Source: Candidatus Omnitrophota bacterium (GTDB lineage: Bacteria > Omnitrophota > Gorgyraeia > Zapsychrales > Fredricksoniimonadaceae). Taken from it: a stretch of DNA of 64,000 bases. The position numbers and the translations under genes were made by a program. This document shows, piece by piece, positions 5,925 through 50,353 of the stretch. A model generated the notes under the pieces. The model saw nothing but the letters and a program-made list of their open reading frames with translations, was not told the DNA's origin and made no database searches. Numbering within the stretch: the stretch's first letter is position 1; every line of letters starts with the position of its first letter. Where the stretch lies: assembly GCA_028870995.1 (NCBI GenBank), contig JAGWOI010000003.1:39955-103954 (forward strand). Reading direction: 5' to 3'.

Positions 5925-5939
5925 TCACCATATTTTCCT

Positions 5940-8210: not shown

Positions 8211-8232
8211 GTTTTTATAGTATAATCCTTCA

Positions 8233-10531: not shown

Positions 10532-10532
10532 C

Positions 10533-11222: not shown

Positions 11223-11228
11223 AATTTA

Positions 11229-13097: not shown

Positions 13098-13099
13098 AC

Positions 13100-15342: not shown

Positions 15343-15348
15343 TCATTT

Positions 15349-16053: not shown

Positions 16054-16182
16054 GTGCTAAATTAAGTTGCAATTTTTGACCAATAATAATACAATAACCC
16101 CTTCTGACACAACTGCATTTGGTCTTTAAAAACCCTATTGCTTGAAGTGGCGGTAGGGTTAAATTATGAGGCAGGTTAGAGC

Positions 16183-20721: not shown

Positions 20722-20723
20722 AC

Positions 20724-22965: not shown

Positions 22966-25900
22966 ATGATAAAGGCCAATAAAACGCCCCTTGTTTGGTT
23001 GGTAATCTTGGCATTCTCGGTCAATACCTTGATCACCGGACCGGTCTTTGCCGACGTTCCTTTTTTACCTGCCCCGGGCAGGCTGGTTCCCTTAACACCT
23101 TCGTTTTCCCCACCGATCATTCTTGGCCTGAAGGTATTCAAAAACAACCCGTTCAAGTTTGAGTTTGTCATGTCCGAGGGGGACCGGGCGCCCGGCCCTG
23201 ACTCGGTGGCCCGCAGGGCCTTTCTTAAAGCTGAGGGCGACAAGCTGGTCAAATATTTTCTGGCCTCCCTGACCATTCCGCAGAAAGACATGTGGGTCAA
23301 CCTCTCACCCTATGAGCATGACCGCATCATTGCACCTGAGTTCGGTATCACCGAAATGGGCAAACAAATGCTGGCTCAGGATTATCTGCTCAAGCAGGTC
23401 ACCGCGTCCGTCATGTACCCCAACGGGGCCGTAGGCCGGGAATTTTGGGGCAAGATTTACCGGGAAGCCTATAAACGCTTTGGCACCACCAATATTCCGG
23501 TCAGCACTTTTAATAAGGTGTGGATTTTGCCGGATAAGGCCGAGGTTTACGAGAACCAGGTTGATAACACGGCAGTGATCATCAAGAGCAGTTTAAAGGT
23601 AATGCTGGAGGAGGATTATCTGGCCCTGCGCAAATCGTCCCTGCCCGGGGAAGTCCATAAAGATTCCAGCGCCGACCGGCAGCTGTCCAATGAACTTATC
23701 CGCCAGATCATCCTGCCTTTGATCGAGAAGGAAGTCAATACGGGGAAGAATTTTGCCGGCTTGCGGCAGGTCTATAATTCCCTGATCCTGGCTTTTTGGT
23801 ATAAGAACAAATTAAAAGAGAGTTTGATCAGTAAAGGATATGTCAACCGCAAGAAAATACACGGGGTGGAGGTCAAGGACAAGAACATTGATGAGGAAAT
23901 TTACCGGCAATATTTGAAATCCTATAAAAAGGGGGTTTACAATTTCATCAAGGAAGAAGTCGACCCTTCCACCCAGGAGACCATTCCGCGTAAATATTTC
24001 TCCGGCGGTATCGTCTGGGACAATCTCGGCCGCCAAATGAGCACGGTCTTTGGCAGGGATTCCGCCCAGGCGGCGTCCCTGATCTTGAAATCAGCCAAGA
24101 CCTTTGAGCTGACCGTCGGCTTGGAAGAAATCCAGCATGCTTCGAGTGGCAATCCGCTTTATTTGGACCTGAACAGCATCACCAGCTCCAAGCCCCTCTT
24201 TTCGGCCCAAGATATTACAAGGCTTAATGAGGCCATTACCGATACTCGGAATTTTTTGGAGCCGGAGCCGGTGGAAGATGCCGCCATGCTGGGCACAACC
24301 ACCCGACGCTGGGCTGCCGCGCTGGTCGGGCTCGCCCTGCTGGCTGGGGCCAATACGGTTTACGCCAAAGGGGCATACGACCCCATGCCGCAACAACCGG
24401 CTGCAACAAACGGGCTTTCAGCAACCTCTGCTCCTTCTACAGCTCCTTCAACGGCGGCCGACTTAAATCATTTATTGAGCAATACGGTTACGAATGCGGT
24501 GAATCCGTTACAAATGCCTGGACCTCAGGCGCTGACGAATACCACGGCAAACGCAAACCCGACCAACCAGATGAGTGCGAATGACCGAGATAAATTCGCC
24601 TTAGACCTTCGAAACGACCAAAACTGGACAAAGCTGCAGGATACGCTTTTATCACCGGATGCACCGTATTTTGTTATTGTAAATACATCTAAGACCAACA
24701 CGTACAGCATCATCCGTTCCTTTGATAAATGGCTGGGTGACGGTTCTGGCCATGACCCCCAATCCTATATCGATTTTGTCTATGGCAGCGGCTCGTCACC
24801 TGATAATCAACCGAATGTTACTTTTAAGATCCGCGTACCCCCACCGGCCAGTCAGGGTAAGGTCGATATTTCAACCATCGATTCCTGGACACAAATCGTC
24901 AATCCGGATCAGATCAAGCAAATCCAGTTGGACCGAAAGACGATCTATGTACAGGTCTTTTGGAAGGACAAGGATGGCCATGCCCAAAGCGGAGTCGTTT
25001 ATGCCGGCCCCAAGGCGGCGCTGACCGTCCAACATATGATGAATGATGCTCAGCTGGACAATGATTTGACACAAAAAATTTTAAAGATCACCAGCATCCC
25101 TGATTATGAAGAGCAGATCAATACCATCCTGAAAACCAGCGGGCTCCCCGAGGCAGGGACTAATGATGTTTCGAAGGAGGGGGGAATCATCGTCGGAGCC
25201 TATGTCCAAAGAGACCAATTTGGTTCCATTACTAGTGTTACCGGTTGGATACATGCCAGGGACATCGATACTCAAATCGTCAAAGGAACCGACGATAAAC
25301 CACACTTGGTCCTTTATAACAACGGCAAGGATCCGCAGATCCTCAAATACTGGCCCTATGGGCAGGACATTGATGTTTTCAGTGTACTGACGCCGGCAGA
25401 ATTAAATATGCTGCACGACCCCCAAACGGCCGATCTGGCTTTGAATAAGTATTTATACAATCTCGGCGGCAGTCCTTTGGAAAGAGGCGGTATTGTTTTC
25501 GGGAAGAATAAGTATATCAAGAAAATGATGGAAGTTGAGGCACAAAAGGCCATTGCCGAACATGACAAGCAGGCCACCAAGGAATATCTGCATTATTTGA
25601 AGGTCAGCGAAAAGGCCGATTTGTTATTTTCCGCGGCCAGCGGGGGACTCTCCGCCGTTGGGATCAATGCACCTGTGAATGCCGTAGGGGACATCTTAGT
25701 TGATATGAAATACCAGCCGGAGAAAATAGGCCAATATGTCCCAACCGCAGAAGAATTGCAGCAGTTATTCAATGAATATAATGCACAACAACCGAAGGAA
25801 GATCAGGTTGTACTGAAAAACGGCAGATTTGAAACCGTCAAAGGCTTTTATACCCAACGGGATATTGAATTACTCGATGGCTGGCTGGTCAAAAGAAATA

Positions 25901-28900
25901 AGGAGAAGACGGCTGCCTTCATTCTCCAACAGGTTTCCAGGATGGCGGTCATTGCCAGCTATTATACGCCTACGAAGACGAAATCCAGCGGTGCCTACCG
26001 ATTTCAAGTGCCTGAAAATGATGCCCTCTATCATTTCTTGGCGCAGGATGTCGGCTCCTTCCTGGGTGAGTTTAATGTGGCGGGACTTTATAATACGGTG
26101 AGCAGTCATGGGTTGCAGTACGTTTCGCTGGGGAATCTTCTTAACAAAGGTTCCTTCTTAAACAAACTTACAAGCGTTCTCGGCGTGACCATTAACGGCC
26201 AGTCCCTGATCAATGAAATCACCGGACGCAAGGTATTCGAGCTGGCTCCCTCAAAAACAAGGATTAATTTTTACGTGCTGGGTTTTCCTATTTCTCATTT
26301 TTTTGAAGAGGATTTGGTGGCCAATATCGATAAGATCCTCAATGACAGAGACTCCTATGCCTTTATCGTCAAAGACGGCCATTTCAGAAGCGTTGCGGTG
26401 GCTTTCACCAAGGATCAATTCCAGGCTTTATATAAGTCCGCCGTGCCCATTGGGAAGATCAGCAATATTTCTCCGGTTGATGGCCGTCCCATGTCCGTGC
26501 CGGTTTATGAAGTTGAGACGATCAGCCCCAGCGGTGAGCATATTCATCAGACCATGGTTTTTACGTTAAAGGCGCTTGAGCAGGCCGGGTTGGATGTCCG
26601 CCGGGATTTGGAGCGGTATGATAATTTTACCAAAATGCTGAATGAAGGCGGCGCCGTCTTCCATTACGGTTCCGACGGCGGGACCCTGTCCCAAAACATC
26701 TATACGGGATTATTCAAATCTTTCAGCCAACAAGGCATGGATGATTTTCCCAGCGCCTATACCTTTGACCAGGCAGGCGCAGATCGTTTCTTTATTGAAA
26801 TGGGGAATTTTCAGTCGGCTAAATGGAATTTGGATTTCTTTTTTGATGTCATGAAGGCGCAGCTGAAGTTGAGCGGCCAATTTCAGGGCTTAAGCAAATC
26901 ATATAATGCTTATAATGGGGCTGATGCTTCCGACCAGCCGGATATCGGGGGAACGTCCATGATGGCCCAAACCATCATGGCTTATGAAAAGTCAACCGGG
27001 GATAAGAAATACCATCTACTGCTGACAGAGTCCATCAAATGGCTCCTGAAAGTCCAGAAAGAAAATGGCGGCAAAGCCTTGCCTGACACCCCCGGCGGGC
27101 ATCTTTTTAATCCTGAACCCAATGCCATTGCTTTCGCGGCCTTGCATAATTTTGGGACTATTTATAACGACAAGGACGCTTTGCTTGCCGCCGATCAGAT
27201 CCGGCAATGGGCGGCTGGTTTGTGGGACAAAGAAAATTTTCTTATCAAATCTCCCAACGGCAATTATCCGGCGGACAACAACACGCGTTGGTTGCAGGCC
27301 CTGGGGCCTAAGGCCTTCATGGAGACCTTCCTTGATAATGATCCGGTGAAGCTGGGCAAATTCTTGCGGGCCATGGAGAAGACCTTCGGCGTTACCGTCA
27401 TCAACTATCATACCGGGCAAACGGTTCACCTGCTTGACCTGGCTGACCAGCAAAAGGCCGACGGACGCCTGACCAACGATCAGCATACACCCAATCACAG
27501 GATAGGATTCCCGGAAGTCACCGCTGAGTTTCTTCAAGGGCTCATTGACTCCCGGCCCTATTTAACGCGTGAGGATGCCGCCTTTGCGGATCAGTTGATC
27601 GCCAAGTACAGCGGGCAATTACAAGCCATGACAGACAGGAACGGGAATCTGCCTCAAGCGACCGATAAAGGCAAAGACAGCGGCTACAACGGCTTGACCA
27701 TTCTGGGCAATCACAGCCTAGCTTCCGGTGTGCAGTATCAATTCATGGTTTTGGGGCTTGATCCTCTTCATTTGGACGGTCCCCGGGGCAACGCCCTTGG
27801 GCTGAAACCTGACAAGATCGAGATCCCGCCGGTCCTGAGTTTTAACACTTTAAATCAGGGAGCCGTCATCAAGCCCGGGGAAACGAATTATTTACAAATG
27901 AGCCGGTATTTTAATCAGCTTATCATTGATGAGCATGCGCATCACAACCGCAATCTTATTTATCATGATCCTATTAACAATTTGCACTTTGTTTATATCA
28001 ATACCGCAGACCATATAGTTGATGCCAGGTTGATCCCCTCACCCAAAGAAATCCAGAAGCAGGTGGTTTTGGCCGGTGAAGATGCACAGATGACCGCTTT
28101 GAAGAGTCAGGCCCTTAACGGGCAGGGGGCTTTCCCGCATGGCGGTGTCATCTTCCAGACACCAGACGGGAAACGTTTAGGAATGCTTAGAGGCGTGGAA
28201 GGCCAGAGTGATGCTGTCGAGGATGTGCTTAGCGCCGTTGGCCAGCTCCCCGTTCAGGAGCAATCTTTCATCAATTACAAAGGTTTCAGTAATTTTATGC
28301 TTCATAATTACAAGGTTGACGGGGTCCATCAGGATGTTATGGTAACGGTTGTTTTTCCGCTTCATAAATCCATTGTACATGATGTGAAGGATGATCATAA
28401 CGTGATAACGACCAGTATTTATGAAGGCGGCCGTTTGCGTTTTATCATCAATGACAACACCACAACCGTAATGAATTATGACGACGCCACAGGAGTTGAG
28501 AGCACCACCACAAGTTATCATAATTTTGCCGGCGGCAGGGAGGCCATGGTTAAGATGTTGTCAGACTCCTCAAAGCCGCTGGCAGAGCGGCAAGCTCTAT
28601 TTAACGGCCAGCATCCCTCGAATAAAACCACGACGGTTTGGGCCGGTTACATCGATCCCACCCTGTCCATGGACCGGGTAGATCCTAACGAGGTTTGGAT
28701 CATCAAGCGATCGACCAACCTCGATACGGGACATGTGACGACCCAGGGCTATGGCTTGTTTACCCGTCCTGTCTGGGAAGCGGACCAGTTTACGGTGACG
28801 GAAAATCATTTTGACCAGTCCGGCAGCTTTACCCATGCCGAACAGTTTCAAAATACAGGCACATTGCAAACCCCTCAAAAAGGCCAAGAGCTTTTTGAGA

Positions 28901-31900
28901 TAAAGGTGCTTGATCCAAATGAGATCAAAGGCTTACCGCAGCAGTTCACAGAAAAGCAGCAACAAGCCCATCAAAGCCTCGTTTATAAAAAGGACGTCAT
29001 CCACGGCACAGAGTCATTGATGGTCATGGATAACGAAAACTACGGCCGTTATACCGCCAAATATACGGCGGATCAATTTACCAATCCTGAAGGCCAGACC
29101 TCAAAATTAAGCACGGTCTTAATTCCTGAATACCGCCCCGATTTTATGGGAGGGCAGGTGCCGTATGTGACACGCGAGTACAGCGGTGCCGGCAAACTAA
29201 TGAAGGAAAGCCTGACCATTTCCATTGATGCCGTCACCCAGGTGACAACCGTTCAAGAGAAGAACATGCGCACCGGTGAGGTGATTGAGAAGAATATTGA
29301 GCCTCTTTTCGGTAATTCGCTGACGGAATCCAAGATGGATTCTTTGGGCCGACAAGAGATTGTGAGCAATGTTTACAGCAACGACTACTTGCACGTCTCT
29401 TCCACCACGGTCATAGGCGGAACCTTGGCTGTCGAGACCAAGGGCACCTATAATCAAGCCGCTCAGCAATGGACCCTGGAACAAACCCGCTGGAATTACA
29501 GCAGGAATGCTCAACAGGAAAAAGTCCCTGTCAAATATGAGACAGTTCGCAGCGTCTTAAGTGCCGGCGGGCATTTGATCTATGAAGATACCATGTTTCC
29601 CCAAAATGTTTATGAAATAAACGGGCATACGTACACCGAAAACGACCGCAGGTTTATCCCGGAATACGACGTAAACGGTAATATCAGCCGCAGTACGGAA
29701 GGAATCATTGCCAATGGAGTTTTTACTCCCAAAGAGATTATGGAATACAGCGATTACGGTGATTTCTTTGCGGCGCGGCAATCGTTCACCAAGCGCATCA
29801 TCAATGGTAAGGAAATCATCTATTCGACCTCCCGGCTGCTGACAACGCCGGCGGAATATCAAAAAAGCGGCAAATTACGTTTCGAGGTCACGAGCAAGGT
29901 CTATGACAAGGCCGATGATCCTGCCACATGGATTGAGACGACTGACAGGGACGGGCATTTGGTCGAGAAATCCCTGCAGGTTTATGACGGCCAAAATCTG
30001 GTCGGTGAACAGGTCACGAGTTTCAGTAATTTCAATGTCCAGAATATTCCTGCTCAATCCACCACCTTTATCCGCCAGGGCGCTGCGAATGAGGTGCTTT
30101 CCACATCTATCGATAAGACTTCCCTTGAGGAGGCCAGGCTTGGCCTGGAGAGAACAGAGATCACCAATCAATTCAACGGCCTGGTCCGCCAGGAATTAAG
30201 AGACCGGCGCGGCCGGGTCATCGAAAACGACATTGAAGGCGTCGATCCGGTGACCGGACGGCAGGAGGTCCAGCGAAAGACTGTTTTTTATAATTTTAAC
30301 GAGTTCGATATTGCGGTTGATTCCGTTACAAAGTCCTTGCTGGAAGGGACCTTCACGCCGTACACGACATCCAAACTTTTGTCGGACTACAACGATATCC
30401 TGACCAATCACAGCATCCGTTTTCATGTGCATAATGATTTCTTAAGCAGCACGGCTAACAGCGTGGACTGGCAGGAAGTCAAGGACTATCACGGACACGT
30501 CATCGAATTGGACAAGGGGCATATGAATCCCAACGGCCAATTTGAGGCAACTCGCAAAATCACGTCAACCTATCAAGGGATCCCGGGTCTGATCGATGTG
30601 GCCAACAGCACCAGGACAGTCATGGTCATTGACGGCAAACCCGGGTTGCTGACCGATCAGAGCCATTTGATCACGGCGCATGGGGTGACCATTGACGCGC
30701 ATAATATCAACACCATTCCGGCCCAGGATATTTTTAACGGGGTGCACAAGGTCCGTTACCAAGGCATCAGCTATTTTACCGAATTGGAGGGTATGACGTC
30801 AACGGACCGCGATTATCAGGAGATAAGAAACAGCCTCGGTAATGTGGAGGTTACCCTGTTCGGAACAGTTGACCCGCAGGGCCATTTTAACAAGAACCGC
30901 AGCTTATACCGTGTTTATGGGACGACGGAAAATAATTTCAGCAACTTTGATATTGCAAAAGCCACTGTGACGACAGTGGGTGATAAAGGGCATGAAGAAG
31001 TGGTTTCTTATTCCAACAACACCCACATCACGGACGATGACCGGTACCTAATTTATAAGACTAAAAAGGGGCTAGGGGCGCAAGGACTTGTCCTGACCAA
31101 TGACGTGTTCGCTAATCTTGGCGCCATCACCGCCCAGGTCTCAGGACCGGAACACCAGTTGGATTTGACCCATCTGACAGAGACCATCAGCCAGGTCAAG
31201 GATTCCGAAGGAAGGGTTATATTTACCTTTTCAGGTTTTCCTTCCCTTAATATCAACGGATTCGGAACTGGCAATCCCGTCTTTGTGACGGTCAACCAGT
31301 ACCAGGAAAACAGGATCAGCCAGCCGGTGGCAGCCCACAGCCAGACTTATTTTTGGAAGAAAGCCATGGGGGATTATGACCCCACGGATAATTTCAATCA
31401 ATTGAAGAACTATATTCATAACAACCATCCGACGGTGATTGCCTCGCTCGACAACCTTATGTTTGACAAAGGCGTTGCCACCTATAAAACCGATGATATG
31501 AGGGAAGTCGGCTTGCGCACCGTGTCCATGCGTCTGGACGGGACCATGTACCGTAATTCTTATCAAGGCTCCGGTGTGGACGGCCCGGCCTTGTTTAATT
31601 TGTATTTTGACGAGCATGAATTACCCAGTTACGGCATGGAAATAGGCCCGAGCGGGATCGAAAAACCGTTCTCTATCTATAGACCGACCTTGTTTAACTA
31701 CGGCACCAATCTTGTACCGTATGTCTTGATCGATGAATTCCGTTCCCCGGAAAAAGGCGCTAATAATGAATTTGATTTTCAAAATCAGAAACCTCACGCT
31801 TCCATCCTGATGCATAACGGTACCATCCAGTTGGTACGCACAGGCTCAGCCGTGCGCACAACGCCGTTCTCTTCCATGTTCAGTTTGGGTGATTTGGAAA

Positions 31901-34900
31901 GGAACGGCGTATTCGGCAAGGCAGTGCGCCTTATTCATGAAACCGACCCTGAGAAAATTATGGACGCTGGCCATCAACAAGCCCAAAGCGGAACAGCCCA
32001 GAGCTATGTTTCTTCGTCAGCTAAGAAAATAACCTTTGAGCAAGAAACCTGGGGACAGAAGGCGGCATGGCTGGGACAACAGGCAGGCTTTTTGTTAGGG
32101 TCATTAGGATTCATGTACGCCGTTGTGCTGGCTGCCCGTATCTTCGGTTTTTCAACCAGCTCGCTTCGTTCATTACGGAAAAAAGACATCAATTCCGCCT
32201 CCCAGCAAAACTTCGAAGATCTTGGCTTCACCAAAGAGCAAAGCCAAATTATTCTGGACGAACGTTTCAGGAACGGCGCATTTTTAAGCCATCAGGATTT
32301 CAAAGACCGCCTGGGGGTAAAATTAAGCAGTGCCCACAAGCTTTCCGAGAAATGGCTGCCCAAAATGATTGCCAAGGCCCGCTTCTGGCTTGCCATGCAA
32401 GAGGTCTCATGGGCCAATGGAGAGGTGCCAGCGGAAAAAAGATTCAATACTCAAGACAGCCTGAGGCTGGCTGCCGCAGCCGATGACTCCGTCGTTGATT
32501 TCATGGCTGAACTTAAAGGCCTGTACGGTCTTAAGCCCGAACAGCAGGCGTCTTATGAAAGCGCCCTAAGGATGTTTGGGAAATACCTCAAGGCCGAACA
32601 ATTGCGCGATATTGTCAATACACCGCATTTCCGGTCTCTGGTCGATCATTACAGCAAACAGCGCGCAGCGGAAGTCATCTTGAAATTGATGTTTGAGAAG
32701 ATCCGCGACAATCAGGATTATAAGAATGCCGTCAGGCAGCGCGTTGACGATATTATCAGCAGCACAGGGATGGGCCGTGAATTCCCTGACCAGATTTTTG
32801 CCCTTAAGGACACCTTCCTTAAGAATATCGAGAATGCGCGGCTGCTTCCGGAAGGCCTGCGTTTCCATGATTTCGATATCAGCACGGATTTGCTGGCTTA
32901 TTCCTGGGATGACTTGCGCAAAGGCCCGGACATGGAGCGTCAGGTAAGAAGCGACCTTGTGTCCATCGAGAAATTGTTTGTCTTCCAGGTGATCTTCCAA
33001 AGGGCCCTCTTCGGCCTGGCAGGCCAGGGCAGGGCGGAAGAATATTTATGGGCCAAGTATGTTTGGCCTTCCATAAACAAGCGTCAAGCCCTGAACGACC
33101 CTGATATTCTCCAGAAGATCAAAGCCTTCAAACAGGTCTTTCATGCCTTGCTGCTGGATGAAGTCAATAAACGCCTGGAAGGCAACCGCGATCCCAAAGG
33201 CAAGGTGCTTTATTTTCAGAATATCGTTAATGAAGAGGTGTATAACGATGCCTTCCGTTATTTGTTAGGCCAGAAAGATCCCACCCTGGCTGATGCGGGT
33301 TGGACTCTGTCCGATGATGTCAAAAAGAAGACAGCGCCTATTAGAGAAAAATTGGAAAAGGCCCTGGCCGACATTAATGAGGTCATCGAACTGCCTTCAG
33401 AACAAAGGGCTGAAGAAGTCAAAACGAAAGCGGAAAAGATTAAGCCCCTGGTCCTTGCCTATGTCGGCGCGGTTGATCAACAGATCGGTATGCCGGTGCT
33501 CAAAGGACGCCTGTCTTATTGGCAGCTGACCGTCAACCCCTTGCTTAAGATACTGGGTAATAAAAAGATGCGCCAGCGGATTTTTTCCAAAGGCGGCCCC
33601 TACAACCAAAGCGCGCATGACCTGGTGCGGCGCCTCAATCATTATATTATTTTTGGATCGGTTGCCGTGATGTTTGCCGGCCTGACCCTTAACCTGTTCA
33701 GCGTCTTTCCCTTCATGGTCCCGCCGAGCTTTATTATGGCACCATGGTCCCCTTTGTTGGCAGGCGCGGCCGCCACAGTCACCTCCTTTGTCGGTTCATG
33801 GCTGGTCAAAAAAAGATTGATCAGTTCCTTAAATAAGAAATTAAAGAACGTGAACGAAGAACAAAATAAGGGGAAGAATAAAGAACAGCAGGAAAAGGTC
33901 ATTAAATCGTTCGGCTCCAAGGTAAAGTATCTATACCTTGCTCAAGCCGGTCTTGTCTTAGGCTCCTTGCTGTTGATGCCCACGCTGGCACCGGCGCTGA
34001 CGGCGTGGCTGGGCATTGCTCCTCAAATGTTACCGGTAGCTCCCTTCATTCGTTTTGCCATCCATCTGATACCGGTCATGATCTTCATCGATACCTGGCG
34101 GTTGTCCTTCTATGCCATGAACCATCTGGTTTCAGCCATGGCCTTGCAGCAATATTATGCCACCAATAATGTTTACGAAATCAACAATAAGTCCAGGACA
34201 GACAAAATAACCGGACGTTTAATGGCCCTTTTTAAAGATACCGCTCCGGCACTGGGGACTGTTTATAAAACGCGCGGCCAGGAACGCCTGGCCTCCTTTG
34301 TCAATGTGGTGGATGAAATGACCAGCGAAAAGGACAATTATTTCTTCGCAAAAAATATCGATAAGCAAGGGAAATCTTCTTTGACCGCTAAGCTTTCTCA
34401 ACTGGCAGGGGAACTGGTGGATGCTCAAGGCAAGCCTGATGCAGACAAGATAAGAGATCTGCAGGAAGAAATCGAAACATTTGTGGAAAAAGTAGCAATA
34501 CCTATCAATGTGGAAGGGAAAACAGCTGCCAAATCAGAGAAGCTTGGGCTGCAGAAGCTGGTTGATTTTGTTAATCATAACTACCGCCTGGATAAGGGGG
34601 CGAATCCTTCAACCTGGGGCCATGTGATTCCCACGACCGTGGCCATTATCGGCTACAGTGAAGACTGGTACTTTACCAACGGCGAGCTGCTGGATATCAA
34701 CCGCGGAACGTTCGAAGAGTCGACGATCATTGGAAAATTTGAAAACAGTACGACTGGCCATGACGTCCTGGATAAATTGCTTAAGCACGGCATTCTGCTT
34801 CAAGAAGGCTTAATGTCCAGGAAGGAAGAATTTAAGCGTAAGGTGCGCGTCAACGTGGATTTAAGCGACAAGGAGATCAAACAAATAGCATTGAATGCGG

Positions 34901-37900
34901 GCATAGATGAAAGCGATTTTAATAAAATCGCGCCTCTCCTGAAGGAATGGCGCGACGCCCAGAATGAAGCACAAGAATTTACCCATCGCCTGGGCATGCT
35001 GGCCAAATATAAAACAGAATTGTTCTTGCTCATGGTCAACCGCTTGACCAAGCCAGACTCCCTTGAACGCACAGAGCTTTTGAAAATGATCGATGATCCG
35101 ACCCATGTCCCTGAAGGCATCCTGGACTGGGAGATCTGGCCGCAGATACAGGAATGGGCCAACCTGCAGTTGCCAACGGGCTATGCCAATGCAGTGACCC
35201 AAAAACGTACCCTGATGCGTTTATATACGCATTATGCCAGAATATTCGGCGTAGCTAATCCCGAGGCCGCTGCTGAAGAGAAGATCCGTGTCATTGACCG
35301 CAATCTTATGGCCATGGATGCTTTGAATAAGGTGCTGATTCACGCCGTTGCCAAGACCACCTTTATTAAAGAATTCACGCAAGGGGAGCAGATTTTTAAT
35401 TGGTTGATGGGAAAAGGGTATTTTTATAATGAAGGCAAGAAACAAAATCCGCCCGTGCCTCCGGTTGATGGTCTTCCCAAACCATTGACAGCAGATTCTA
35501 AGAAAAAATTAAAGGAGCAATTCCCCGGGGACTATGAACGTATTGTTCCCATCCTGGAAGAAGCCGGCAGGGGCAGATTAAGAGAGATGCTGGATGTTTT
35601 GATTGAAACAGGGTATCAAGATACTTATAAAGTTTATCCGGATGGGACAAGCAGAGGTGTAAAGGATCCCTATAAGCTTATTAAGGACAATCAAGACAGG
35701 ATCATGGGGGGGATTGATAAAATTAGATACGATATCGATATGTTGACAAAGTTGATGGATTCCATCAAGTATGACCGGCTGTTCCCGGCCAGGTTAAAAG
35801 GCGGAGGGGTAGACACCGCCGATTTATTAACGGGAGAAAATTACCATGGCGCGAAATGGAACCAGAAAACAGCTATCCTGCCTTTCCTGGTGGGACCGGT
35901 TATCCTTAACCTTGATGCCGACCACCGTGCCAATTATGTGGATTACGAATCCCTTCCCAACCATTTGCTGGATTACAATTATTGGCCCGGCCTGGCTGTT
36001 TCAACGCCCATCGTCAAGCACACCTTGACCAAGGGCTTGGGTGTTTTCGGGAACATCCTGCCGGTCTCGGAGAATGCATTTTATTATCATGCCCAGCAGG
36101 CCAAGGAACTTTTCGGCGGCTTGACCGCGACGGGAAAGCTCTTCGAAAGGGTCTCAGCCCTCCGGCATTCCGAGGGAGTTACGGATTCTTATGTCGCCGA
36201 GGATGCGTTGTCGGCAATCAATTACCGGCGGTTCGGTTATGTCACCGGCCGCGCAGGCGCAGTAAAGGTGGAAAAGGGCTGGCCGTTCTCTTTCGCCGCG
36301 GCATCAACCCCGACGAGGAAGTGGTCTTATGACTCGGTGGAATCCGTCAGCGGCAGGACCGCCATGAAGGTGTACATGTCTCCGCTGGTTGACTGGCCAT
36401 TCCTGGTCAACAATTTCTGGCTGGACGGTTTTGGGTTTTATTTCAAGAAACCGGGGATCGTCCGCTATCTGCGCTGGCTGGTGGCGTTCTACCTGGTCAT
36501 GGATTGGAACCTTTTTTCCAACATTCCCCTCTCCATGTGGGTCGGCAGCATGATGCTTTCCCAGTCCATCAGCCAGGGCTTGTTTTTTTATAAGATATTC
36601 GACGAATCGCGGGGCTATGTAAAAGGCACGCTCAGCGCTTTGGGCAGCATTGCGGCCAGGATGTACAGTTATTTTGTGCATCAGGTCTTTGTTTTTGAGG
36701 AAACGGTGGGCAAACTTGCGCCCAACCGTTTGGGTAAATTCCTTTCAACGGCCTCCAAAGGGTCCAACCAGACCCGCATACAGAACAAGGACCTGATGTA
36801 TGTGCGCAGCAATTATGCCATCAAATCAGCCTCTGTTATGGCGGGGGTGACCTTGACCTTGATAGGTTTGTCCCTCAAAAAGTCCGGTTTATGGGCTCTT
36901 ACCCTGGGCATGGGTTTTGCCGGGGTGGCTGCACCGTTTTTGTTAAATCCGGTGCGGATCAGGAAACGTGTAAAAGATAATTTCAGCAATGGGAAGGATA
37001 TTGGAGGCGCTTTTGTCTGGGGCCTGACGGACAATGTGGAAATGCTGATGTATTATCTCAGCGGGTTATTGGCGCGCGTAGGGATAAAATCTTTTCGTTC
37101 AACAGAAGATGACCTGCAGATCAAGGTCTTAGACATGGTCCAGGCCAGAGTATCTCAGCCGTTGGACAAAATCCCTACCGGAAAATGGGGAACGACCTTT
37201 AAGGAAGCCTTTGGTCAGCAGGCCGAAGCCGCGGCTGAATTGGCCGAATACATATATTTATTCCATCAAAAGCCCAGCCATTATCGCAGCATGTATGGCC
37301 GTTCCGTCCTGCCTGCCGTTAACGGACTGTTAAAGATCCTGGCCAATAATCCCGGAAAAGAAGGAACGGATTATTCAAAGAAAATATTAGGGGATGAATT
37401 GGGGGCCTATAAGGAAGCCTTGGGGGTCCGCTTTAAGGAAGTTAAACAATATTTGGAGGTTTTTAAGCATGCCAAGGGGTATGAAAAAATGGTCAGAGAC
37501 GCCGAAAAACAGCTCGCTAAGGCGGATGAAATTTTAAAAAAGACTTCACCGTCAGCAAAGCAGCTGAACCGTGCCGATTGGTTGTTGACCCAGCTTTCCT
37601 GGATCCCGATGCGTATTCAGCGTCAACCTGGAACAATATCAAAACTGAGAGACCAATTTTTAAACACCATGATCGGCGTTGATGCCGTCTCTCAATTAGT
37701 GGCTTTTGCTTGGCTGCCTCTGCGATTATTCTTGGACAGGATAACAAGGACCCCTAAAACTGTTGAGAATGAAAAGAAGGCCTTGGAAATACCGAAATCC
37801 ACCGTTGTTCCTTTGGCGCCCAAAGCCGCGGAAGATAAGGCCATGGCAAGTTCTCCCAAACCCGCAGGAGTCAATAGGATTGCCAAGATTACCAATCCCG

Positions 37901-38085
37901 GCGGTATTGACCTTTCCAAAACAAGGGTCAAAGTCAGTGCCAGGAGTACACCCATTAAAATCAGCTACGATGATCCCGCTTTATTGCGTTTGTTGTTGAA
38001 TGCCGATGGGCTTGCCCCTATAATTTATAGCGTAAGAACAATGACCCCATCCATGGCTGATCATTTTGTAGGTTTGGACTATTGA
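22966..38085 (+). CDS. giant (5,039 aa) secreted / polytopic membrane protein of unknown function
   Basis: A single uninterrupted 15,120-nt ORF in the ORF track. It has an N-terminal signal peptide (MIKANKTPLVWLVILAFSVNTLITGPVFA). There are no internal stops, and none of the ORFs on the other frames or strand exceeds 173 aa. The amino-acid composition is ordinary along its whole length. Domain hints are given in the findings. An RBS-like AAGAAAG lies upstream. Confidence 0.7.
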   Translation: MIKANKTPLVWLVILAFSVNTLITGPVFADVPFLPAPGRLVPLTPSFSPPIILGLKVFKNNPFKFEFVMSEGDRAPGPDSVARRAFLKAEGDKLVKYFLASLTIPQKDMWVNLSPYEHDRIIAPEFGITEMGKQMLAQDYLLKQVTASVMYPNGAVGREFWGKIYREAYKRFGTTNIPVSTFNKVWILPDKAEVYENQVDNTAVIIKSSLKVMLEEDYLALRKSSLPGEVHKDSSADRQLSNELIRQIILPLIEKEVNTGKNFAGLRQVYNSLILAFWYKNKLKESLISKGYVNRKKIHGVEVKDKNIDEEIYRQYLKSYKKGVYNFIKEEVDPSTQETIPRKYFSGGIVWDNLGRQMSTVFGRDSAQAASLILKSAKTFELTVGLEEIQHASSGNPLYLDLNSITSSKPLFSAQDITRLNEAITDTRNFLEPEPVEDAAMLGTTTRRWAAALVGLALLAGANTVYAKGAYDPMPQQPAATNGLSATSAPSTAPSTAADLNHLLSNTVTNAVNPLQMPGPQALTNTTANANPTNQMSANDRDKFALDLRNDQNWTKLQDTLLSPDAPYFVIVNTSKTNTYSIIRSFDKWLGDGSGHDPQSYIDFVYGSGSSPDNQPNVTFKIRVPPPASQGKVDISTIDSWTQIVNPDQIKQIQLDRKTIYVQVFWKDKDGHAQSGVVYAGPKAALTVQHMMNDAQLDNDLTQKILKITSIPDYEEQINTILKTSGLPEAGTNDVSKEGGIIVGAYVQRDQFGSITSVTGWIHARDIDTQIVKGTDDKPHLVLYNNGKDPQILKYWPYGQDIDVFSVLTPAELNMLHDPQTADLALNKYLYNLGGSPLERGGIVFGKNKYIKKMMEVEAQKAIAEHDKQATKEYLHYLKVSEKADLLFSAASGGLSAVGINAPVNAVGDILVDMKYQPEKIGQYVPTAEELQQLFNEYNAQQPKEDQVVLKNGRFETVKGFYTQRDIELLDGWLVKRNKEKTAAFILQQVSRMAVIASYYTPTKTKSSGAYRFQVPENDALYHFLAQDVGSFLGEFNVAGLYNTVSSHGLQYVSLGNLLNKGSFLNKLTSVLGVTINGQSLINEITGRKVFELAPSKTRINFYVLGFPISHFFEEDLVANIDKILNDRDSYAFIVKDGHFRSVAVAFTKDQFQALYKSAVPIGKISNISPVDGRPMSVPVYEVETISPSGEHIHQTMVFTLKALEQAGLDVRRDLERYDNFTKMLNEGGAVFHYGSDGGTLSQNIYTGLFKSFSQQGMDDFPSAYTFDQAGADRFFIEMGNFQSAKWNLDFFFDVMKAQLKLSGQFQGLSKSYNAYNGADASDQPDIGGTSMMAQTIMAYEKSTGDKKYHLLLTESIKWLLKVQKENGGKALPDTPGGHLFNPEPNAIAFAALHNFGTIYNDKDALLAADQIRQWAAGLWDKENFLIKSPNGNYPADNNTRWLQALGPKAFMETFLDNDPVKLGKFLRAMEKTFGVTVINYHTGQTVHLLDLADQQKADGRLTNDQHTPNHRIGFPEVTAEFLQGLIDSRPYLTREDAAFADQLIAKYSGQLQAMTDRNGNLPQATDKGKDSGYNGLTILGNHSLASGVQYQFMVLGLDPLHLDGPRGNALGLKPDKIEIPPVLSFNTLNQGAVIKPGETNYLQMSRYFNQLIIDEHAHHNRNLIYHDPINNLHFVYINTADHIVDARLIPSPKEIQKQVVLAGEDAQMTALKSQALNGQGAFPHGGVIFQTPDGKRLGMLRGVEGQSDAVEDVLSAVGQLPVQEQSFINYKGFSNFMLHNYKVDGVHQDVMVTVVFPLHKSIVHDVKDDHNVITTSIYEGGRLRFIINDNTTTVMNYDDATGVESTTTSYHNFAGGREAMVKMLSDSSKPLAERQALFNGQHPSNKTTTVWAGYIDPTLSMDRVDPNEVWIIKRSTNLDTGHVTTQGYGLFTRPVWEADQFTVTENHFDQSGSFTHAEQFQNTGTLQTPQKGQELFEIKVLDPNEIKGLPQQFTEKQQQAHQSLVYKKDVIHGTESLMVMDNENYGRYTAKYTADQFTNPEGQTSKLSTVLIPEYRPDFMGGQVPYVTREYSGAGKLMKESLTISIDAVTQVTTVQEKNMRTGEVIEKNIEPLFGNSLTESKMDSLGRQEIVSNVYSNDYLHVSSTTVIGGTLAVETKGTYNQAAQQWTLEQTRWNYSRNAQQEKVPVKYETVRSVLSAGGHLIYEDTMFPQNVYEINGHTYTENDRRFIPEYDVNGNISRSTEGIIANGVFTPKEIMEYSDYGDFFAARQSFTKRIINGKEIIYSTSRLLTTPAEYQKSGKLRFEVTSKVYDKADDPATWIETTDRDGHLVEKSLQVYDGQNLVGEQVTSFSNFNVQNIPAQSTTFIRQGAANEVLSTSIDKTSLEEARLGLERTEITNQFNGLVRQELRDRRGRVIENDIEGVDPVTGRQEVQRKTVFYNFNEFDIAVDSVTKSLLEGTFTPYTTSKLLSDYNDILTNHSIRFHVHNDFLSSTANSVDWQEVKDYHGHVIELDKGHMNPNGQFEATRKITSTYQGIPGLIDVANSTRTVMVIDGKPGLLTDQSHLITAHGVTIDAHNINTIPAQDIFNGVHKVRYQGISYFTELEGMTSTDRDYQEIRNSLGNVEVTLFGTVDPQGHFNKNRSLYRVYGTTENNFSNFDIAKATVTTVGDKGHEEVVSYSNNTHITDDDRYLIYKTKKGLGAQGLVLTNDVFANLGAITAQVSGPEHQLDLTHLTETISQVKDSEGRVIFTFSGFPSLNINGFGTGNPVFVTVNQYQENRISQPVAAHSQTYFWKKAMGDYDPTDNFNQLKNYIHNNHPTVIASLDNLMFDKGVATYKTDDMREVGLRTVSMRLDGTMYRNSYQGSGVDGPALFNLYFDEHELPSYGMEIGPSGIEKPFSIYRPTLFNYGTNLVPYVLIDEFRSPEKGANNEFDFQNQKPHASILMHNGTIQLVRTGSAVRTTPFSSMFSLGDLERNGVFGKAVRLIHETDPEKIMDAGHQQAQSGTAQSYVSSSAKKITFEQETWGQKAAWLGQQAGFLLGSLGFMYAVVLAARIFGFSTSSLRSLRKKDINSASQQNFEDLGFTKEQSQIILDERFRNGAFLSHQDFKDRLGVKLSSAHKLSEKWLPKMIAKARFWLAMQEVSWANGEVPAEKRFNTQDSLRLAAAADDSVVDFMAELKGLYGLKPEQQASYESALRMFGKYLKAEQLRDIVNTPHFRSLVDHYSKQRAAEVILKLMFEKIRDNQDYKNAVRQRVDDIISSTGMGREFPDQIFALKDTFLKNIENARLLPEGLRFHDFDISTDLLAYSWDDLRKGPDMERQVRSDLVSIEKLFVFQVIFQRALFGLAGQGRAEEYLWAKYVWPSINKRQALNDPDILQKIKAFKQVFHALLLDEVNKRLEGNRDPKGKVLYFQNIVNEEVYNDAFRYLLGQKDPTLADAGWTLSDDVKKKTAPIREKLEKALADINEVIELPSEQRAEEVKTKAEKIKPLVLAYVGAVDQQIGMPVLKGRLSYWQLTVNPLLKILGNKKMRQRIFSKGGPYNQSAHDLVRRLNHYIIFGSVAVMFAGLTLNLFSVFPFMVPPSFIMAPWSPLLAGAAATVTSFVGSWLVKKRLISSLNKKLKNVNEEQNKGKNKEQQEKVIKSFGSKVKYLYLAQAGLVLGSLLLMPTLAPALTAWLGIAPQMLPVAPFIRFAIHLIPVMIFIDTWRLSFYAMNHLVSAMALQQYYATNNVYEINNKSRTDKITGRLMALFKDTAPALGTVYKTRGQERLASFVNVVDEMTSEKDNYFFAKNIDKQGKSSLTAKLSQLAGELVDAQGKPDADKIRDLQEEIETFVEKVAIPINVEGKTAAKSEKLGLQKLVDFVNHNYRLDKGANPSTWGHVIPTTVAIIGYSEDWYFTNGELLDINRGTFEESTIIGKFENSTTGHDVLDKLLKHGILLQEGLMSRKEEFKRKVRVNVDLSDKEIKQIALNAGIDESDFNKIAPLLKEWRDAQNEAQEFTHRLGMLAKYKTELFLLMVNRLTKPDSLERTELLKMIDDPTHVPEGILDWEIWPQIQEWANLQLPTGYANAVTQKRTLMRLYTHYARIFGVANPEAAAEEKIRVIDRNLMAMDALNKVLIHAVAKTTFIKEFTQGEQIFNWLMGKGYFYNEGKKQNPPVPPVDGLPKPLTADSKKKLKEQFPGDYERIVPILEEAGRGRLREMLDVLIETGYQDTYKVYPDGTSRGVKDPYKLIKDNQDRIMGGIDKIRYDIDMLTKLMDSIKYDRLFPARLKGGGVDTADLLTGENYHGAKWNQKTAILPFLVGPVILNLDADHRANYVDYESLPNHLLDYNYWPGLAVSTPIVKHTLTKGLGVFGNILPVSENAFYYHAQQAKELFGGLTATGKLFERVSALRHSEGVTDSYVAEDALSAINYRRFGYVTGRAGAVKVEKGWPFSFAAASTPTRKWSYDSVESVSGRTAMKVYMSPLVDWPFLVNNFWLDGFGFYFKKPGIVRYLRWLVAFYLVMDWNLFSNIPLSMWVGSMMLSQSISQGLFFYKIFDESRGYVKGTLSALGSIAARMYSYFVHQVFVFEETVGKLAPNRLGKFLSTASKGSNQTRIQNKDLMYVRSNYAIKSASVMAGVTLTLIGLSLKKSGLWALTLGMGFAGVAAPFLLNPVRIRKRVKDNFSNGKDIGGAFVWGLTDNVEMLMYYLSGLLARVGIKSFRSTEDDLQIKVLDMVQARVSQPLDKIPTGKWGTTFKEAFGQQAEAAAELAEYIYLFHQKPSHYRSMYGRSVLPAVNGLLKILANNPGKEGTDYSKKILGDELGAYKEALGVRFKEVKQYLEVFKHAKGYEKMVRDAEKQLAKADEILKKTSPSAKQLNRADWLLTQLSWIPMRIQRQPGTISKLRDQFLNTMIGVDAVSQLVAFAWLPLRLFLDRITRTPKTVENEKKALEIPKSTVVPLAPKAAEDKAMASSPKPAGVNRIAKITNPGGIDLSKTRVKVSARSTPIKISYDDPALLRLLLNADGLAPIIYSVRTMTPSMADHFVGLDY

Positions 38086-38121: not shown

Positions 38122-38430
38122 ATGAAATTGACATTAAAGAAGATATCCATAAAATCGTTTACCGTTATTTTCGCTTCCATCAATGTCATTGCCGGCTTTA
38201 TTTTAGGGACCATCGTTACCATCGTCTCCCTTGTGTCGCCGCCTGAACAGGGGGCAAGCCAGGCTGGTGTCTGGGCCATCCTTCTTTTCCCTATCTTCAA
38301 CGGTCTTTTGGGTTTGGCCACGAGTGCCTTTTTGGCCGGGCTTTATAACCTGCTGGCCGGCTGGATAGGTGGTGTGGAAATGGAATACGAGGCCAAAGAG
38401 ACTCCTTCGACGCAGGAACAAGTTAAATAA
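38122..38430 (+). CDS. small 2-TM membrane protein
   Basis: 102 aa with RBS AAGGAAGGAG. There are two hydrophobic helices (FTVIFASINVIAGFILGTIVTIVSLV and VWAILLFPIFNGLLGLATSAFLAGL) and an acidic C-tail. Confidence 0.5.
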   Translation: MKLTLKKISIKSFTVIFASINVIAGFILGTIVTIVSLVSPPEQGASQAGVWAILLFPIFNGLLGLATSAFLAGLYNLLAGWIGGVEMEYEAKETPSTQEQVK

Positions 38431-38468
38431 AATCAGTGAATCTGACTCCTAAATATCCGCAGGATAAA

Positions 38469-47032: not shown

Positions 47033-47040
<8 letters not shown>
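45946..47040 (+). CDS. carA: carbamoyl-phosphate synthase small subunit
   Basis: 364 aa. CPSase small-subunit N-domain plus GATase1 ([31 protein letters not shown]). Confidence 0.9.
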
Positions 47041-50347
<3,307 letters not shown>

Positions 50348-50353
50348 GGTTTT

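What the first reader, a model, noticed from the sequence alone, without database searches (positions are those of the whole stretch)
22966..38085. A 15.1-kb single ORF encoding a 5,039-aa secreted / polytopic protein with no recognisable family
One uninterrupted reading frame of 15,120 nt is extremely rare in bacteria. The opposite strand and the other frames contain only short shadow ORFs. Codon and residue composition stay protein-like across the whole length. The product has a cleavable signal peptide, about 3,000 aa of apparently extracytoplasmic sequence, and then about 2,000 aa containing three clusters of TM helices. I recognise no catalytic domain of a known giant-protein class, such as NRPS/PKS, RTX, Rhs core with the DPxGL motif, cadherin/Ig arrays or filamentous haemagglutinin repeats. 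Giant genes are a reported hallmark of some uncultivated lineages, for example Omnitrophota. That is established knowledge, but this window cannot be assigned taxonomically from sequence alone. This protein, its TPR lipoprotein upstream and the two small secreted or membrane genes downstream are the best candidate in this window for an undescribed cell-surface system. Possible roles include adhesion, predation or attachment, or envelope remodelling.
Basis: partly seen in the sequence, partly recalled or inferred. Interest (0 to 1): 0.85.

Follow-up and report, generated by a model that had tools for sequence, protein, structure and literature searches.

The report
Giant membrane sugar-polymer synthase, Omnitrophota
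The 15-kb gene is real and encodes an Omnitrophota envelope protein whose last third is a membrane-embedded sugar-polymer (beta-glucan) synthase related to fungal Fks1 and bacterial cellulose synthase, capped at both ends by two short modules shared with thousands of other, undescribed Omnitrophota secreted proteins.

The parts
22966..23052 (+). Sec-type signal peptide (aa 1-29, predicted cleavage VFA|DV)
   Evidence: Hydrophobic core aa 9-27 (KD 1.95). Across 81-85 family members: mean n-region charge +2.5, ~21-aa uncharged core, Ala at -1 in 69/85 and Ala/Val at -3 in 62/85, 4-5 aa before the invariant LPAPG. Rule-based only; SignalP was not available.
23053..24009 (+). N-module of an undescribed Omnitrophota family (aa 30-348, LPAPG ... 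PRKYFSGG)
24010..24372 (+). Linker with DxA(M/Q) motifs (DSAQ 365, DAAM 438) and a second, signal-peptide-like hydrophobic segment (aa 441-467, RRW-AAALVGLALLAGA-NTVYA|KG)
   Evidence: The motif lies within ~5-40 aa of the N-module end in most of 117 members, against a background of 0.38 per 100 aa. A comparable hydrophobic segment is present in P0121 and P0122 at different distances. Its role is unexplained.
24373..32088 (+). ~2,570-aa TM-free region, inferred periplasmic or surface-exposed (aa 470-3041). Contains divergent ~95-aa repeats at aa ~2060-2680 and a weak (alpha/alpha)6 hint at aa ~1380-1440
   Evidence: No hydrophobic segment. The side of the membrane is inferred from the positive-inside pattern of the next TM and from the GT domain having to be cytoplasmic. 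P0121 carries Peptidase_M15_3 (35.6 bits, cutoff 23.2) and a borderline PG_binding_1 in its equivalent segment. hhalign self-matches reach 95-97% probability, E 5e-10 to 2.5e-8, and the DxxG[RHNK] motif occurs 6 times against 0.47 expected. PDB profile searches give nothing significant.
32089..32145 (+). Transmembrane anchor (aa 3042-3060), orientation out to in
   Evidence: KD 1.92. K/R count is 1 in the N-flank and 4 in the C-flank. Conserved in P0121 and P0122.
32146..33633 (+). Cytoplasmic helical block (aa 3061-3556), the best-conserved part outside the catalytic core
   Evidence: 65-85% identity to P0121 and P0122 at aa 3200-3500. Shared with other synthase-bearing giants. It sits where Fks1 has its accessory domain, but no sequence match was found.
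33634..34101 (+). Four-helix TM bundle preceding the catalytic domain (aa 3557-3712)
   Evidence: AF2 helices 3552-3580, 3596-3633, 3639-3681 and 3693-3734. Alternating positive-inside pattern of 3/0, 0/6 and 4/0.
34102..36432 (+). Cytoplasmic GT-A glycosyltransferase domain of Fks1/BcsA type (aa 3713-4489; catalytic core aa 4290-4480 = nt 35833-36405)
36433..36948 (+). Post-catalytic TM/interface-helix region forming the presumed glycan channel (aa 4490-4661; FYFKKP, LSQSIS, PFLLNP motifs)
36949..37827 (+). C-terminal helical region (aa 4662-4954) with a conserved, moderately hydrophobic segment at aa 4901-4923
   Evidence: KD 1.46 in the giant, 1.55 in P0121 and 1.85 in P0122. Whether it spans the membrane is undecided, and that decides on which side the C-module lies.
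37828..38085 (+). C-module of the same Omnitrophota family (aa 4955-5039: DKAM ... GGIDL ... DDPALLRLLLNADGLAPIIYSV ... FVGL) plus stop codon
   Evidence: Shared with 61 of 120 listed family members at 26-43% identity. HMM hits in P0121, P0122 and P0139 at 3e-15 to 5e-19. No Pfam or NCBIfam hit.
38122..38430 (+). Conserved small partner gene: 102-aa protein with two hydrophobic segments and no cysteine
   Evidence: 50% identity, E 4e-32, to the ORF directly downstream of P0122. A 92-aa ORF sits at the same place after P0121. A strong RBS (AAGGAAGGAG) lies 36 nt after the giant's stop.

Best explanation
The ORF is a genuine gene of an Omnitrophota bacterium. It encodes a single-polypeptide, inner-membrane-anchored exopolysaccharide synthase that carries its own giant periplasmic arm. 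Proposed working: a Sec signal peptide exports the N-terminal ~3,000 aa (the family N-module plus a ~2,570-aa, partly repetitive region). One TM helix (aa 3042-3060) brings the chain back into the cytoplasm. There a conserved helical block, a four-helix TM bundle, a GT-A catalytic domain and a further TM/interface-helix set form an Fks1/cellulose-synthase-like machine. That machine polymerises a sugar, most likely glucose from UDP-glucose in beta linkage, and pushes the growing chain through its own membrane channel. On the outside the polymer would meet the protein's own arm, which may guide, bind or modify it. The co-transcribed 102-aa membrane protein is probably an accessory subunit. Shown: the gene is real; the fold, homology and catalytic-residue conservation of the synthase; membership of the N-/C-module family. 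Inferred: the topology, the enzymatic activity, the donor and linkage, and any role of the arm, the two modules and the small partner.
Confidence: 0.7

Rival explanations
1. Processed polyprotein or cargo model. The N-module and C-module are removable bookends of a lineage-specific secretion or processing system. The precursor is cut at the DxA|(M/Q) motifs, so the N-module is exported by its own signal peptide. The cargo, here a glucan-synthase pre-protein starting at M441 with its own signal peptide (aa 441-467), then inserts independently. This is compatible with the synthase function but changes how the protein is made and what the modules do.
For: The family has conserved ends and unrelated middles and occurs in tandem arrays with different middles. 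DxA(M/Q) is strongly enriched at both boundaries. Signal-peptide-like segments directly follow that motif in the giant, in P0121 and P0122, and in about 16% of listed members; one (P0037) has a Tat-like SRRKFIR motif. This model removes the topological conflict of the second hydrophobic segment. Middles of ordinary members are cytoplasm-type, cofactor-dependent enzymes such as HATPase_c, SAM methyltransferases, GNAT and kinases.
Against: No protease is identified, and no conserved neighbouring gene is seen next to family members. The fourth position is M or Q, so the motif is not simply a retained start codon. AF2 gave no confident contact between the N- and C-modules (pTM 0.48, C-module pLDDT 55-69). 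There are no proteomic data.
Confidence: 0.25
2. Non-enzymatic giant adhesin or coat protein. The synthase-like region is a degenerate relic used only as a membrane anchor, and the function lies in the extracellular arm (attachment to host or prey), as proposed for other Omnitrophota giants.
For: The literature assigns attachment and cell-wall degradation roles to Omnitrophota giant proteins (PMC10066038; 10.1101/2023.11.21.568195). The arm is long and partly repetitive. The homologue P0121 carries a peptidoglycan peptidase.
Against: The synthase core is the most conserved part of the protein (62-88% identity to P0121 and P0122), and the catalytic residues are invariant or nearly so in 26-29 relatives. 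That pattern is the opposite of a relic. No adhesin-type Pfam domain (dockerin, discoidin, Ig, cadherin, TSP3) is found.
Confidence: 0.08
3. Rhs/Tc-type or other polymorphic toxin. The DxxG-containing beta-rich region is a YD-repeat shell that encapsulates a toxin.
For: DxxG[RHNK] motifs recur in aa 2125-2746, and the protein is very poor in cysteine.
Against: No RHS_repeat, Rhs core or toxin domain is found at E<0.1. The repeat period is ~95 aa, not ~20 aa. The region is followed by a TM anchor and a synthase, not by a C-terminal toxin.
Confidence: 0.03
4. Assembly artefact: a chimeric or frameshift-corrected contig creates an artificial long frame.
For: It is a metagenomic sequence. The gene's G+C (~0.49) is lower than its flanks (0.55-0.58).
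Against: There are collinear full-length homologues from two other samples and an identical independent contig over 4.9 kb. The in-frame codon signal matches the host's housekeeping genes along the whole length. There are no repeats.
Confidence: 0.02

Closest known systems
[quoted passage not shown]
   Same: It is the best sequence-profile match (2e-22 over the GT domain plus a following TM stretch). Foldseek aligns 1,059-1,312 columns. The order is the same: cytoplasmic block, TM bundle, GT-A domain, TM/interface helices. Equivalents of E851, K1082, D1102, E1173, E1221/D1222 and K1246 are conserved.
   Different: The host is bacterial. It has four rather than six TM helices before the GT domain. 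It has DAD (a true DxD) where Fks1 has DAN, and an RKW motif where Fks1 has TKI. D1080, E1155 and R1248 are not kept. No match to the accessory domain was found. The Pfam GT48 model does not hit the giant itself. It is fused to a ~3,000-aa exported N-terminal part and to the family C-module. There is no Rho1-type regulator context.
Bacterial cellulose synthase BcsA, with BcsB (GT2; PDB 4P00, 4HG6)
   Different: The sequence-profile match is weaker than to Fks1 (1e-8 against 2e-22). No PilZ domain and no GT2 Pfam hit were found. The periplasmic arm precedes the synthase in the same chain and shows no similarity to BcsB. No bcs-type operon is present.
Omnitrophota giant proteins described so far (Archaeovorin-type, Dockerin-type, multi-enzyme and tandem-repeat classes; 10.1101/2023.11.21.568195, 10.64898/2026.06.07.730766, PMC10066038)
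   Same: Same phylum. It has the SP+TM architecture, which is common among them (39% of proteins of at least 10 kaa). It has few or no Pfam hits. The synthase core in other species also lies in very long frames, open across whole 7-kb loci in most of 19 genomes.
   Different: It is much shorter (5 kaa against 10-147 kaa). It lacks the hallmark SecA_DEAD, C39 peptidase, dockerin and TSP3 domains. The passages retrieved from these papers mention neither a glucan or cellulose-synthase-type domain, nor shared N-/C-terminal modules, nor cysteine avoidance.
Secreted proteins with conserved sorting modules and variable passengers (T9SS cargo with a C-terminal domain; polymorphic toxins with conserved N-terminal trafficking domains)
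   Same: The logic is similar: a Sec signal peptide, a conserved terminal module or modules, interchangeable functional parts, paralogous expansion and tandem arrays.
   Different: No sequence or fold relationship was found: there is no Por_Secre_tail, TIGR04183 or other hit, and the N-module has no PDB fold relative. Here the variable part is in the middle, between two conserved ends, and the boundaries carry DxA(M/Q) motifs. The resemblance is an analogy only.

Membership tests
GT48 (Fks1/callose-synthase family) | The protein itself scores above the Pfam Glucan_synthase (PF02364) gathering threshold | tested here: not met
   No Pfam hit at E<0.1 for either half of the giant. Distant relatives do hit it: P0176 at 71.8 bits against a cutoff of 37.2, and P0145, P0168, P0170 and P0174 below threshold.
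GT48 (Fks1/callose-synthase family) | Profile-level homology of the catalytic domain to solved Fks1 | tested here: met
   A2 profile to Fks1 at 2e-22, residues 806-1275 plus 1376-1498. Close family against the Pfam-positive group: hhalign 99.9%, E 5e-33. That group to Fks1: 1.2e-21. Control: close relatives alone do not reach Fks1.
GT48 (Fks1/callose-synthase family) | Conservation of the experimentally tested Fks1 active-site residues (E851, D1080, K1082, D1102/N1104, E1155, K1172/E1173, H1195, E1221, D1222, K1246/R1248; PMC10499315) | tested here: inconclusive
   Kept: E3899, K4297, D4317, E4369, E4412, D4413, K4437, in 20-28 of 22-28 relatives. Not kept: D1080->G4295, E1155->K4351, K1172->S4368, R1248->W4439. 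H1195 has no clear equivalent.
GT48 (Fks1/callose-synthase family) | DAN motif in place of DxD (metal-independent) | tested here: not met
   The giant has D4317-A-D4319, and the second position is D in 21/27 relatives.
GT48 (Fks1/callose-synthase family) | Domain order: accessory domain, TM1-6, GT domain, TM7-17 (PMC12715860) | tested here: inconclusive
   The TM bundle, GT domain and following TM set are present. There are only four helices before the GT domain. The upstream conserved block shows no match to the accessory domain.
GT48 (Fks1/callose-synthase family) | Product is beta-1,3-glucan made from UDP-glucose | not testable with these tools
   This needs an enzymatic assay and linkage analysis.
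GT2 processive membrane synthases (BcsA/CesA/HAS/Chs type) | GT-A domain packed on a TM channel with interface helices | tested here: met
GT2 processive membrane synthases (BcsA/CesA/HAS/Chs type) | D, DxD, (T)ED and QxxRW motifs | tested here: inconclusive
   DxD (4317-4319) and ED (4412-4413) are present and invariant. In place of QxxRW there is T-R-K-W (4450-4453), with K/R in 29/29 and W/Y/F in 29/29 relatives. The Q is absent.
GT2 processive membrane synthases (BcsA/CesA/HAS/Chs type) | Pfam GT2-type model hit (Glyco_trans_2_3, Glycos_transf_2 or Cellulose_synt) on the protein itself | tested here: not met
   No hit for the giant. Glyco_trans_2_3 hits occur only in the distant relatives P0172, P0174 and P0182.
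GT2 processive membrane synthases (BcsA/CesA/HAS/Chs type) | C-terminal PilZ domain (c-di-GMP control, BcsA-specific) | tested here: not met
   No PilZ hit. The C-terminal 380 aa are helical plus the family C-module.
Omnitrophota N-/C-module family (undescribed; defined here) | Sec signal peptide with AxA|Q/D followed by LPAPG and the ~320-aa N-module ending in PRKYFSGG | tested here: met
Omnitrophota N-/C-module family (undescribed; defined here) | C-terminal ~65-85-aa module (GGIDL ... DPAxLxxLxNAxGxxPVI ... FLG) | tested here: met
   Giant aa 4955-5039 aligns with 61 of 120 members and belongs to the 'RTAF/ADGL' subtype.
Omnitrophota N-/C-module family (undescribed; defined here) | DxA(M/Q) motifs at both module boundaries, and strong cysteine depletion | tested here: met
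   Motifs at 365, 438 and 4957. The giant has 0 Cys, and the family has 0.13% against a 1.8% background.
Archaeovorin / Dockerin-type Omnitrophota giants (West-Roberts et al. 2023) | SecA_DEAD-like domain, C39 or S8 peptidase, dockerin/TSP3/discoidin repeats | tested here: not met
   None was found by Pfam at E<0.1.
Rhs / YD-repeat proteins | RHS_repeat units (~20 aa) and an Rhs core with DPxGL | tested here: not met
   No Pfam hit. The repeats found have a ~95-aa period.
T9SS cargo (C-terminal sorting domain) | Por_Secre_tail / TIGR04183-type C-terminal domain | tested here: not met
   No Pfam or NCBIfam hit in the C-terminal half.

The most novel reading that the evidence does not exclude
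The N- and C-modules define a previously undescribed, phylum-specific cargo cassette system. In Omnitrophota, thousands of genes would be built by placing whole, unrelated ORFs (sometimes with their own start Met and Sec or Tat signal peptide still visible) between a secreted ~320-aa N-module of novel fold and a ~70-aa C-module, with DxA|(M/Q) motifs at both junctions acting as processing or recognition sites. The giant would be the case in which the captured cargo is a complete bacterial Fks-like glucan synthase. That enzyme lineage, combining GT2-type motifs with GT48-type sequence, would also bear on where the eukaryotic beta-1,3-glucan synthases came from.
Probability: 0.3. Interest if true: 0.85.

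Novelty: new variant of a known kind. Interest (0 to 1): 0.66.

Why it matters
There are three reasons. (1) It gives a concrete, testable biochemical function, processive beta-glycan synthesis, to an Omnitrophota giant protein. This is a class whose roles are described in the literature as poorly understood, and it suggests that some of these proteins build a polysaccharide coat and do not only degrade a host's wall. (2) GT48 enzymes (fungal Fks, plant callose synthases) are treated in the papers consulted as eukaryotic enzymes related to GT2 only by fold. A bacterial lineage found in 19 species-level genomes, mostly Omnitrophota, has Fks-like sequence but GT2-like DxD and RKW motifs and a BcsA-like structure. 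It is a candidate link for the origin of that family and a possible simpler model for an antifungal drug target. (3) The work exposed a very large family (more than 4,400 sequences) of secreted Omnitrophota proteins with conserved ends and swappable middles. The family is absent from Pfam and NCBIfam, and its N-module has no solved structural relative. If it is a secretion, display or processing system, it could be central to the host-dependent lifestyle of the phylum.

Tried and rejected
Searches that led nowhere or failed:
- Single-sequence Pfam, NCBIfam, PHROGs and PDB searches of the giant found nothing.
- The word-indexed search failed on the whole protein (over the length limit) and timed out on 5,000 aa.
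- The same search with aa 3850-5039 found nothing, although 60%-identical relatives exist. Its negatives are therefore weak.
- With aa 1850-3040 it found only the identical fragment P0183.
- Three-sequence profiles found nothing significant: aa 1250-1700 gave only E 0.9 to an (alpha/alpha)6 rhamnosidase-type domain, and aa 2350-3050 gave nothing.
- The aa 3040-3560 block showed no match to the Fks1 accessory domain.
- Alignment A1 was too large for structure prediction, A2 was too divergent for the genome scan, and the AFDB fold library was not available.

Ideas tested and rejected or left open:
- A co-fold of the N- and C-modules in a natural 682-aa member gave no confident contact.
- Cysteine depletion as a marker of the N-/C-module family is rejected, because synthase-bearing giants without the modules are also Cys-poor (0.2%).
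- The second hydrophobic segment as a simple TM span is rejected, because it would put the GT domain outside. A crude insertion-energy sum did not separate it from accepted TM helices, so the argument is topological only.
- DxAM as a retained start codon or internal initiation site is rejected as a general explanation, because Q is frequent at the last position.
- The TPR lipoprotein and the 261-aa ORF as parts of a conserved system are not supported.
- The absence of the small partner ORF from the other 18 synthase loci is not informative, because those frames run past the fetched flanks.
- No other family member occurs in the window.
Full report
OBSERVATION. The window holds one open frame from ATG 22966 to the stop ending at 38085: 15,120 nt and 5,039 aa. 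The other two forward frames of the same DNA contain 222 and 328 stops, and the chance of 5,039 stop-free codons at this composition is about 1e-112. A codon log-odds model trained on 16 housekeeping genes of the window is positive in frame 0 (+0.23 to +0.42 per codon) and negative in both other frames in all 16 consecutive 900-nt windows. The gene is therefore coding over its whole length and uses the host's codon dialect, although its G+C (about 0.49) is lower than that of its flanks (0.55-0.58). There are no tandem repeats and no BLAST-detectable self-similarity. Two proteins from unrelated samples, P0121 (6,502 aa, JGI) and P0122 (5,066 aa, Logan SRR12901036), are collinear with it from the N-terminus to the last residues. 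Identity per 100 aa ranges from 16-40% (aa 500-2000) to 62-88% (aa 4300-4700). A 4,869-bp contig of an NCBI 'Candidatus Omnitrophica bacterium' MAG encodes P0183, which is identical to aa 1236-2858 without a mismatch. The frame is genuine. Read mapping could not be done.

An unreported feature is the absence of cysteine. There are 0 Cys in 5,039 residues against 1.8% in the other proteins of the window (P about 4e-40), while the two off-frames contain 164 and 189 TGY codons.

CONTEXT AND ORGANISM. The neighbours are housekeeping genes: a GAF-ANTAR regulator, Amt, GS-III, NadE, two GT2s, an ArnT-like protein, GltB and GltD, a TPR lipoprotein, the giant, two small ORFs, GlpK, GlpD, a methyltransferase, RluA, CarA and CarB, PurF, PyrG and Rpe. 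No secretion-system or polysaccharide-export genes are present. The identical fragment P0183 and all named relatives are from Candidatus Omnitrophica/Omnitrophota.

Residues whose mutation inactivates Fks1 (PMC10499315) map as follows, with family conservation from A3:
- E851 -> E3899 (20/22)
- K1082 -> K4297 (26/26)
- D1102 -> D4317 (27/27)
- N1104 -> D4319 (D in 21/27, hence a true DxD)
- E1173 -> E4369 (23/28)
- E1221/D1222 -> E4412/D4413 (28/28 each)
- K1246 -> K4437 (20/28)
- K1261 -> K4452, followed by W4453 (an RKW motif resembling the QxxRW of GT2)
- E1268 -> E4459 (29/29)
- Not conserved: D1080 -> G, E1155 -> K, K1172 -> S, R1248 -> W

The enzyme therefore looks active. By sequence it is nearest to GT48, and by motifs and fold it is nearest to GT2 cellulose synthases. 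Which linkage it makes cannot be deduced. The core occurs in 19 species-representative genomes, mostly Omnitrophota, and usually inside frames that stay open across the whole 7-kb locus.

TOPOLOGY (inferred). AF2 shows four long helices at aa 3552-3734, then the GT domain, then a helix pattern that I read as the BcsA order IF2-TM-TM-IF3-TM-TM. K/R counts in the flanks fit one model. TM 3042-3060 has 1 on the N side and 4 on the C side. The next helices have 3/0, 0/6 and 4/0, and the last two have 3/2 and 2/5. Since a nucleotide-sugar GT must be cytoplasmic (established knowledge), aa 3061-3556 is cytoplasmic and aa 470-3041 is outside, as is the N-module behind its cleavable signal peptide. 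Consistent with this, P0121 carries Peptidase_M15_3 (35.6 bits) and a borderline PG_binding_1 in its equivalent segment. Two things remain open. First, a signal-peptide-like segment (aa 441-467: M-LGTTTRRW-AAALVGLALLAGA-NTVYA|KG) follows the N-module in the giant and, at other distances, in P0121 and P0122. Both of its flanks are predicted to be outside, so it cannot be a simple span. Second, a conserved, moderately hydrophobic segment at aa 4901-4923 (KD 1.46-1.85 in the three orthologues) would, if it spans the membrane, put the C-module in the periplasm alongside the N-module.

THE MIDDLE. aa 470-3041 has no Pfam, NCBIfam, PHROGs or PDB match, even with three-sequence profiles. A profile self-comparison shows divergent repeats of ~95 aa across aa ~2060-2680 (probability 95-97%, E 5e-10 to 2.5e-8), and a DxxG[RHNK] motif occurs six times against 0.47 expected. 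These are not Rhs/YD repeats. The cytoplasmic block aa 3061-3556, up to 85% identical between orthologues, does not match the Fks1 accessory domain.

NEIGHBOURS. The 102-aa ORF at 38122-38430 has two hydrophobic segments and a strong RBS 36 nt after the giant's stop. It is 50% identical (E 4e-32) to the ORF directly after P0122, and P0121 is also followed by a 92-aa ORF. It is a conserved partner. The TPR lipoprotein has no counterpart at the P0122 locus. The 261-aa ORF, a signal peptide followed by a Q-rich region, is not present there either.

INTERPRETATION. The best-supported reading is a one-polypeptide exopolysaccharide synthase. An Fks1/BcsA-like unit polymerises a beta-glycan at the cytoplasmic face and extrudes it, and it is covalently joined through one TM helix to a ~3,000-aa exported arm. 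That arrangement is functionally reminiscent of BcsB next to BcsA, which is an analogy and not homology. The arm's function, the product, and the roles of the two family modules and of the small partner are not known. A compatible alternative is that the precursor is processed at the DxA|(M/Q) sites. The N-module and the synthase, with its own signal peptide at aa 441-467, would then be separate products. This would explain the odd second signal peptide and the cytoplasm-type enzymes found as middles in most family members, but no protease or proteomic evidence is available.

COMPARISON AND NOVELTY. The protein is not a member of the described Omnitrophota giant classes, since it has no SecA_DEAD, C39, dockerin or TSP3 domain. 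It is not an Rhs protein, and it is not a T9SS cargo. It works like Fks1 and BcsA, but it fails single-sequence membership tests for both GT48 and GT2 and mixes their motifs. I rate it a new variant of a known kind (a processive membrane glycan synthase) in a new fusion context. The N-/C-module family is the more novel by-product and deserves its own study.

Noticed in passing
window 23053-24009 and 37828-38082; family members P0001-P0120; L021 2840-14203: A family of more than 4,400 Omnitrophota proteins shares a Sec signal peptide plus a ~320-aa N-module (LPAPG ... PRKYFSGG) and often a ~70-aa C-module (GGIDL ...), with completely different middles. Three members lie in tandem in L021. No Pfam or NCBIfam model exists, and the N-module has no PDB fold relative.
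   Followed up: partly
window 24058-24069, 24277-24288, 37834-37845 (giant aa 365, 438, 4957); family-wide: A short [DEN]xA[MQ] motif marks both boundaries between the conserved modules and the variable middle (1-3 copies after PRKYFSGG, one 5-25 aa before GGIDL). It may be a processing or recognition site. Its function is unknown.
   Followed up: partly
window 24286-24366 (aa 441-467); P0121 aa 862-889; P0122 aa 359-381; P0037: Internal signal-peptide-like segments lie directly after the N-module, and P0037 has a Tat-like SRRKFIR motif before a GH26-type middle. This looks as if whole pre-proteins had been captured behind the N-module. It conflicts with a simple topology.
   Followed up: partly
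window 22966-38085 and relatives P0121-P0182: Extreme cysteine avoidance: 0 in 5,039 aa here, 0-2 in the 5-6.5-kaa orthologues, and 0.2% overall in synthase-bearing giants even without the N-/C-modules. The cause is unknown; export in an unfolded state or an oxidising environment are possibilities.
   Followed up: partly
window 54236-55999 (+): A 587-aa ORF with 69 cysteines (11.75%) and an N-terminal class III (pilin-type) signal peptide hit (PF04021). It is the opposite compositional extreme to the giant.
   Followed up: no
window 4173-22211 and 45946-53337: An unusual concentration of ammonium and glutamine metabolism genes and glutamine-amidotransferase enzymes lies around the giant: Amt, GS-III, GATase, NadE, GltB and GltD, CarA and CarB, PurF, PyrG.
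   Followed up: no
P0121 (JGI 3300050821), segment equivalent to giant aa ~470-1300: The 6,502-aa orthologue has an ~850-aa insert with Peptidase_M15_3 and a borderline PG_binding_1, which are peptidoglycan-directed modules absent from the window's protein.
   Followed up: partly
L002-L020 (19 GTDB species representatives): The Fks-like core is embedded in frames that stay open across the entire fetched 5-7-kb loci in most genomes. This synthase therefore seems typically to be part of very long proteins. Several bins labelled 'uncultured Planctomycetales', 'Desulfonema' or Elusimicrobia also carry it.
   Followed up: partly
window 38436-39221 (+): A 261-aa ORF (GTG start) with a signal peptide and a glutamine-rich low-complexity region overlaps the start of glpK by 4 nt. 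It has no Pfam hit and is not conserved next to the orthologue P0122.
   Followed up: partly
window 60228-63281 (+): A 1,017-aa protein with Ig-like and InlB B-repeat domains is another probable surface protein in the window.
   Followed up: no
tool behaviour: The word-indexed protein search missed the 60%-identical relatives (P0121, P0122) that the exhaustive HMMER search found. For long queries, negative results of the word-indexed search are therefore unreliable.
   Followed up: yes
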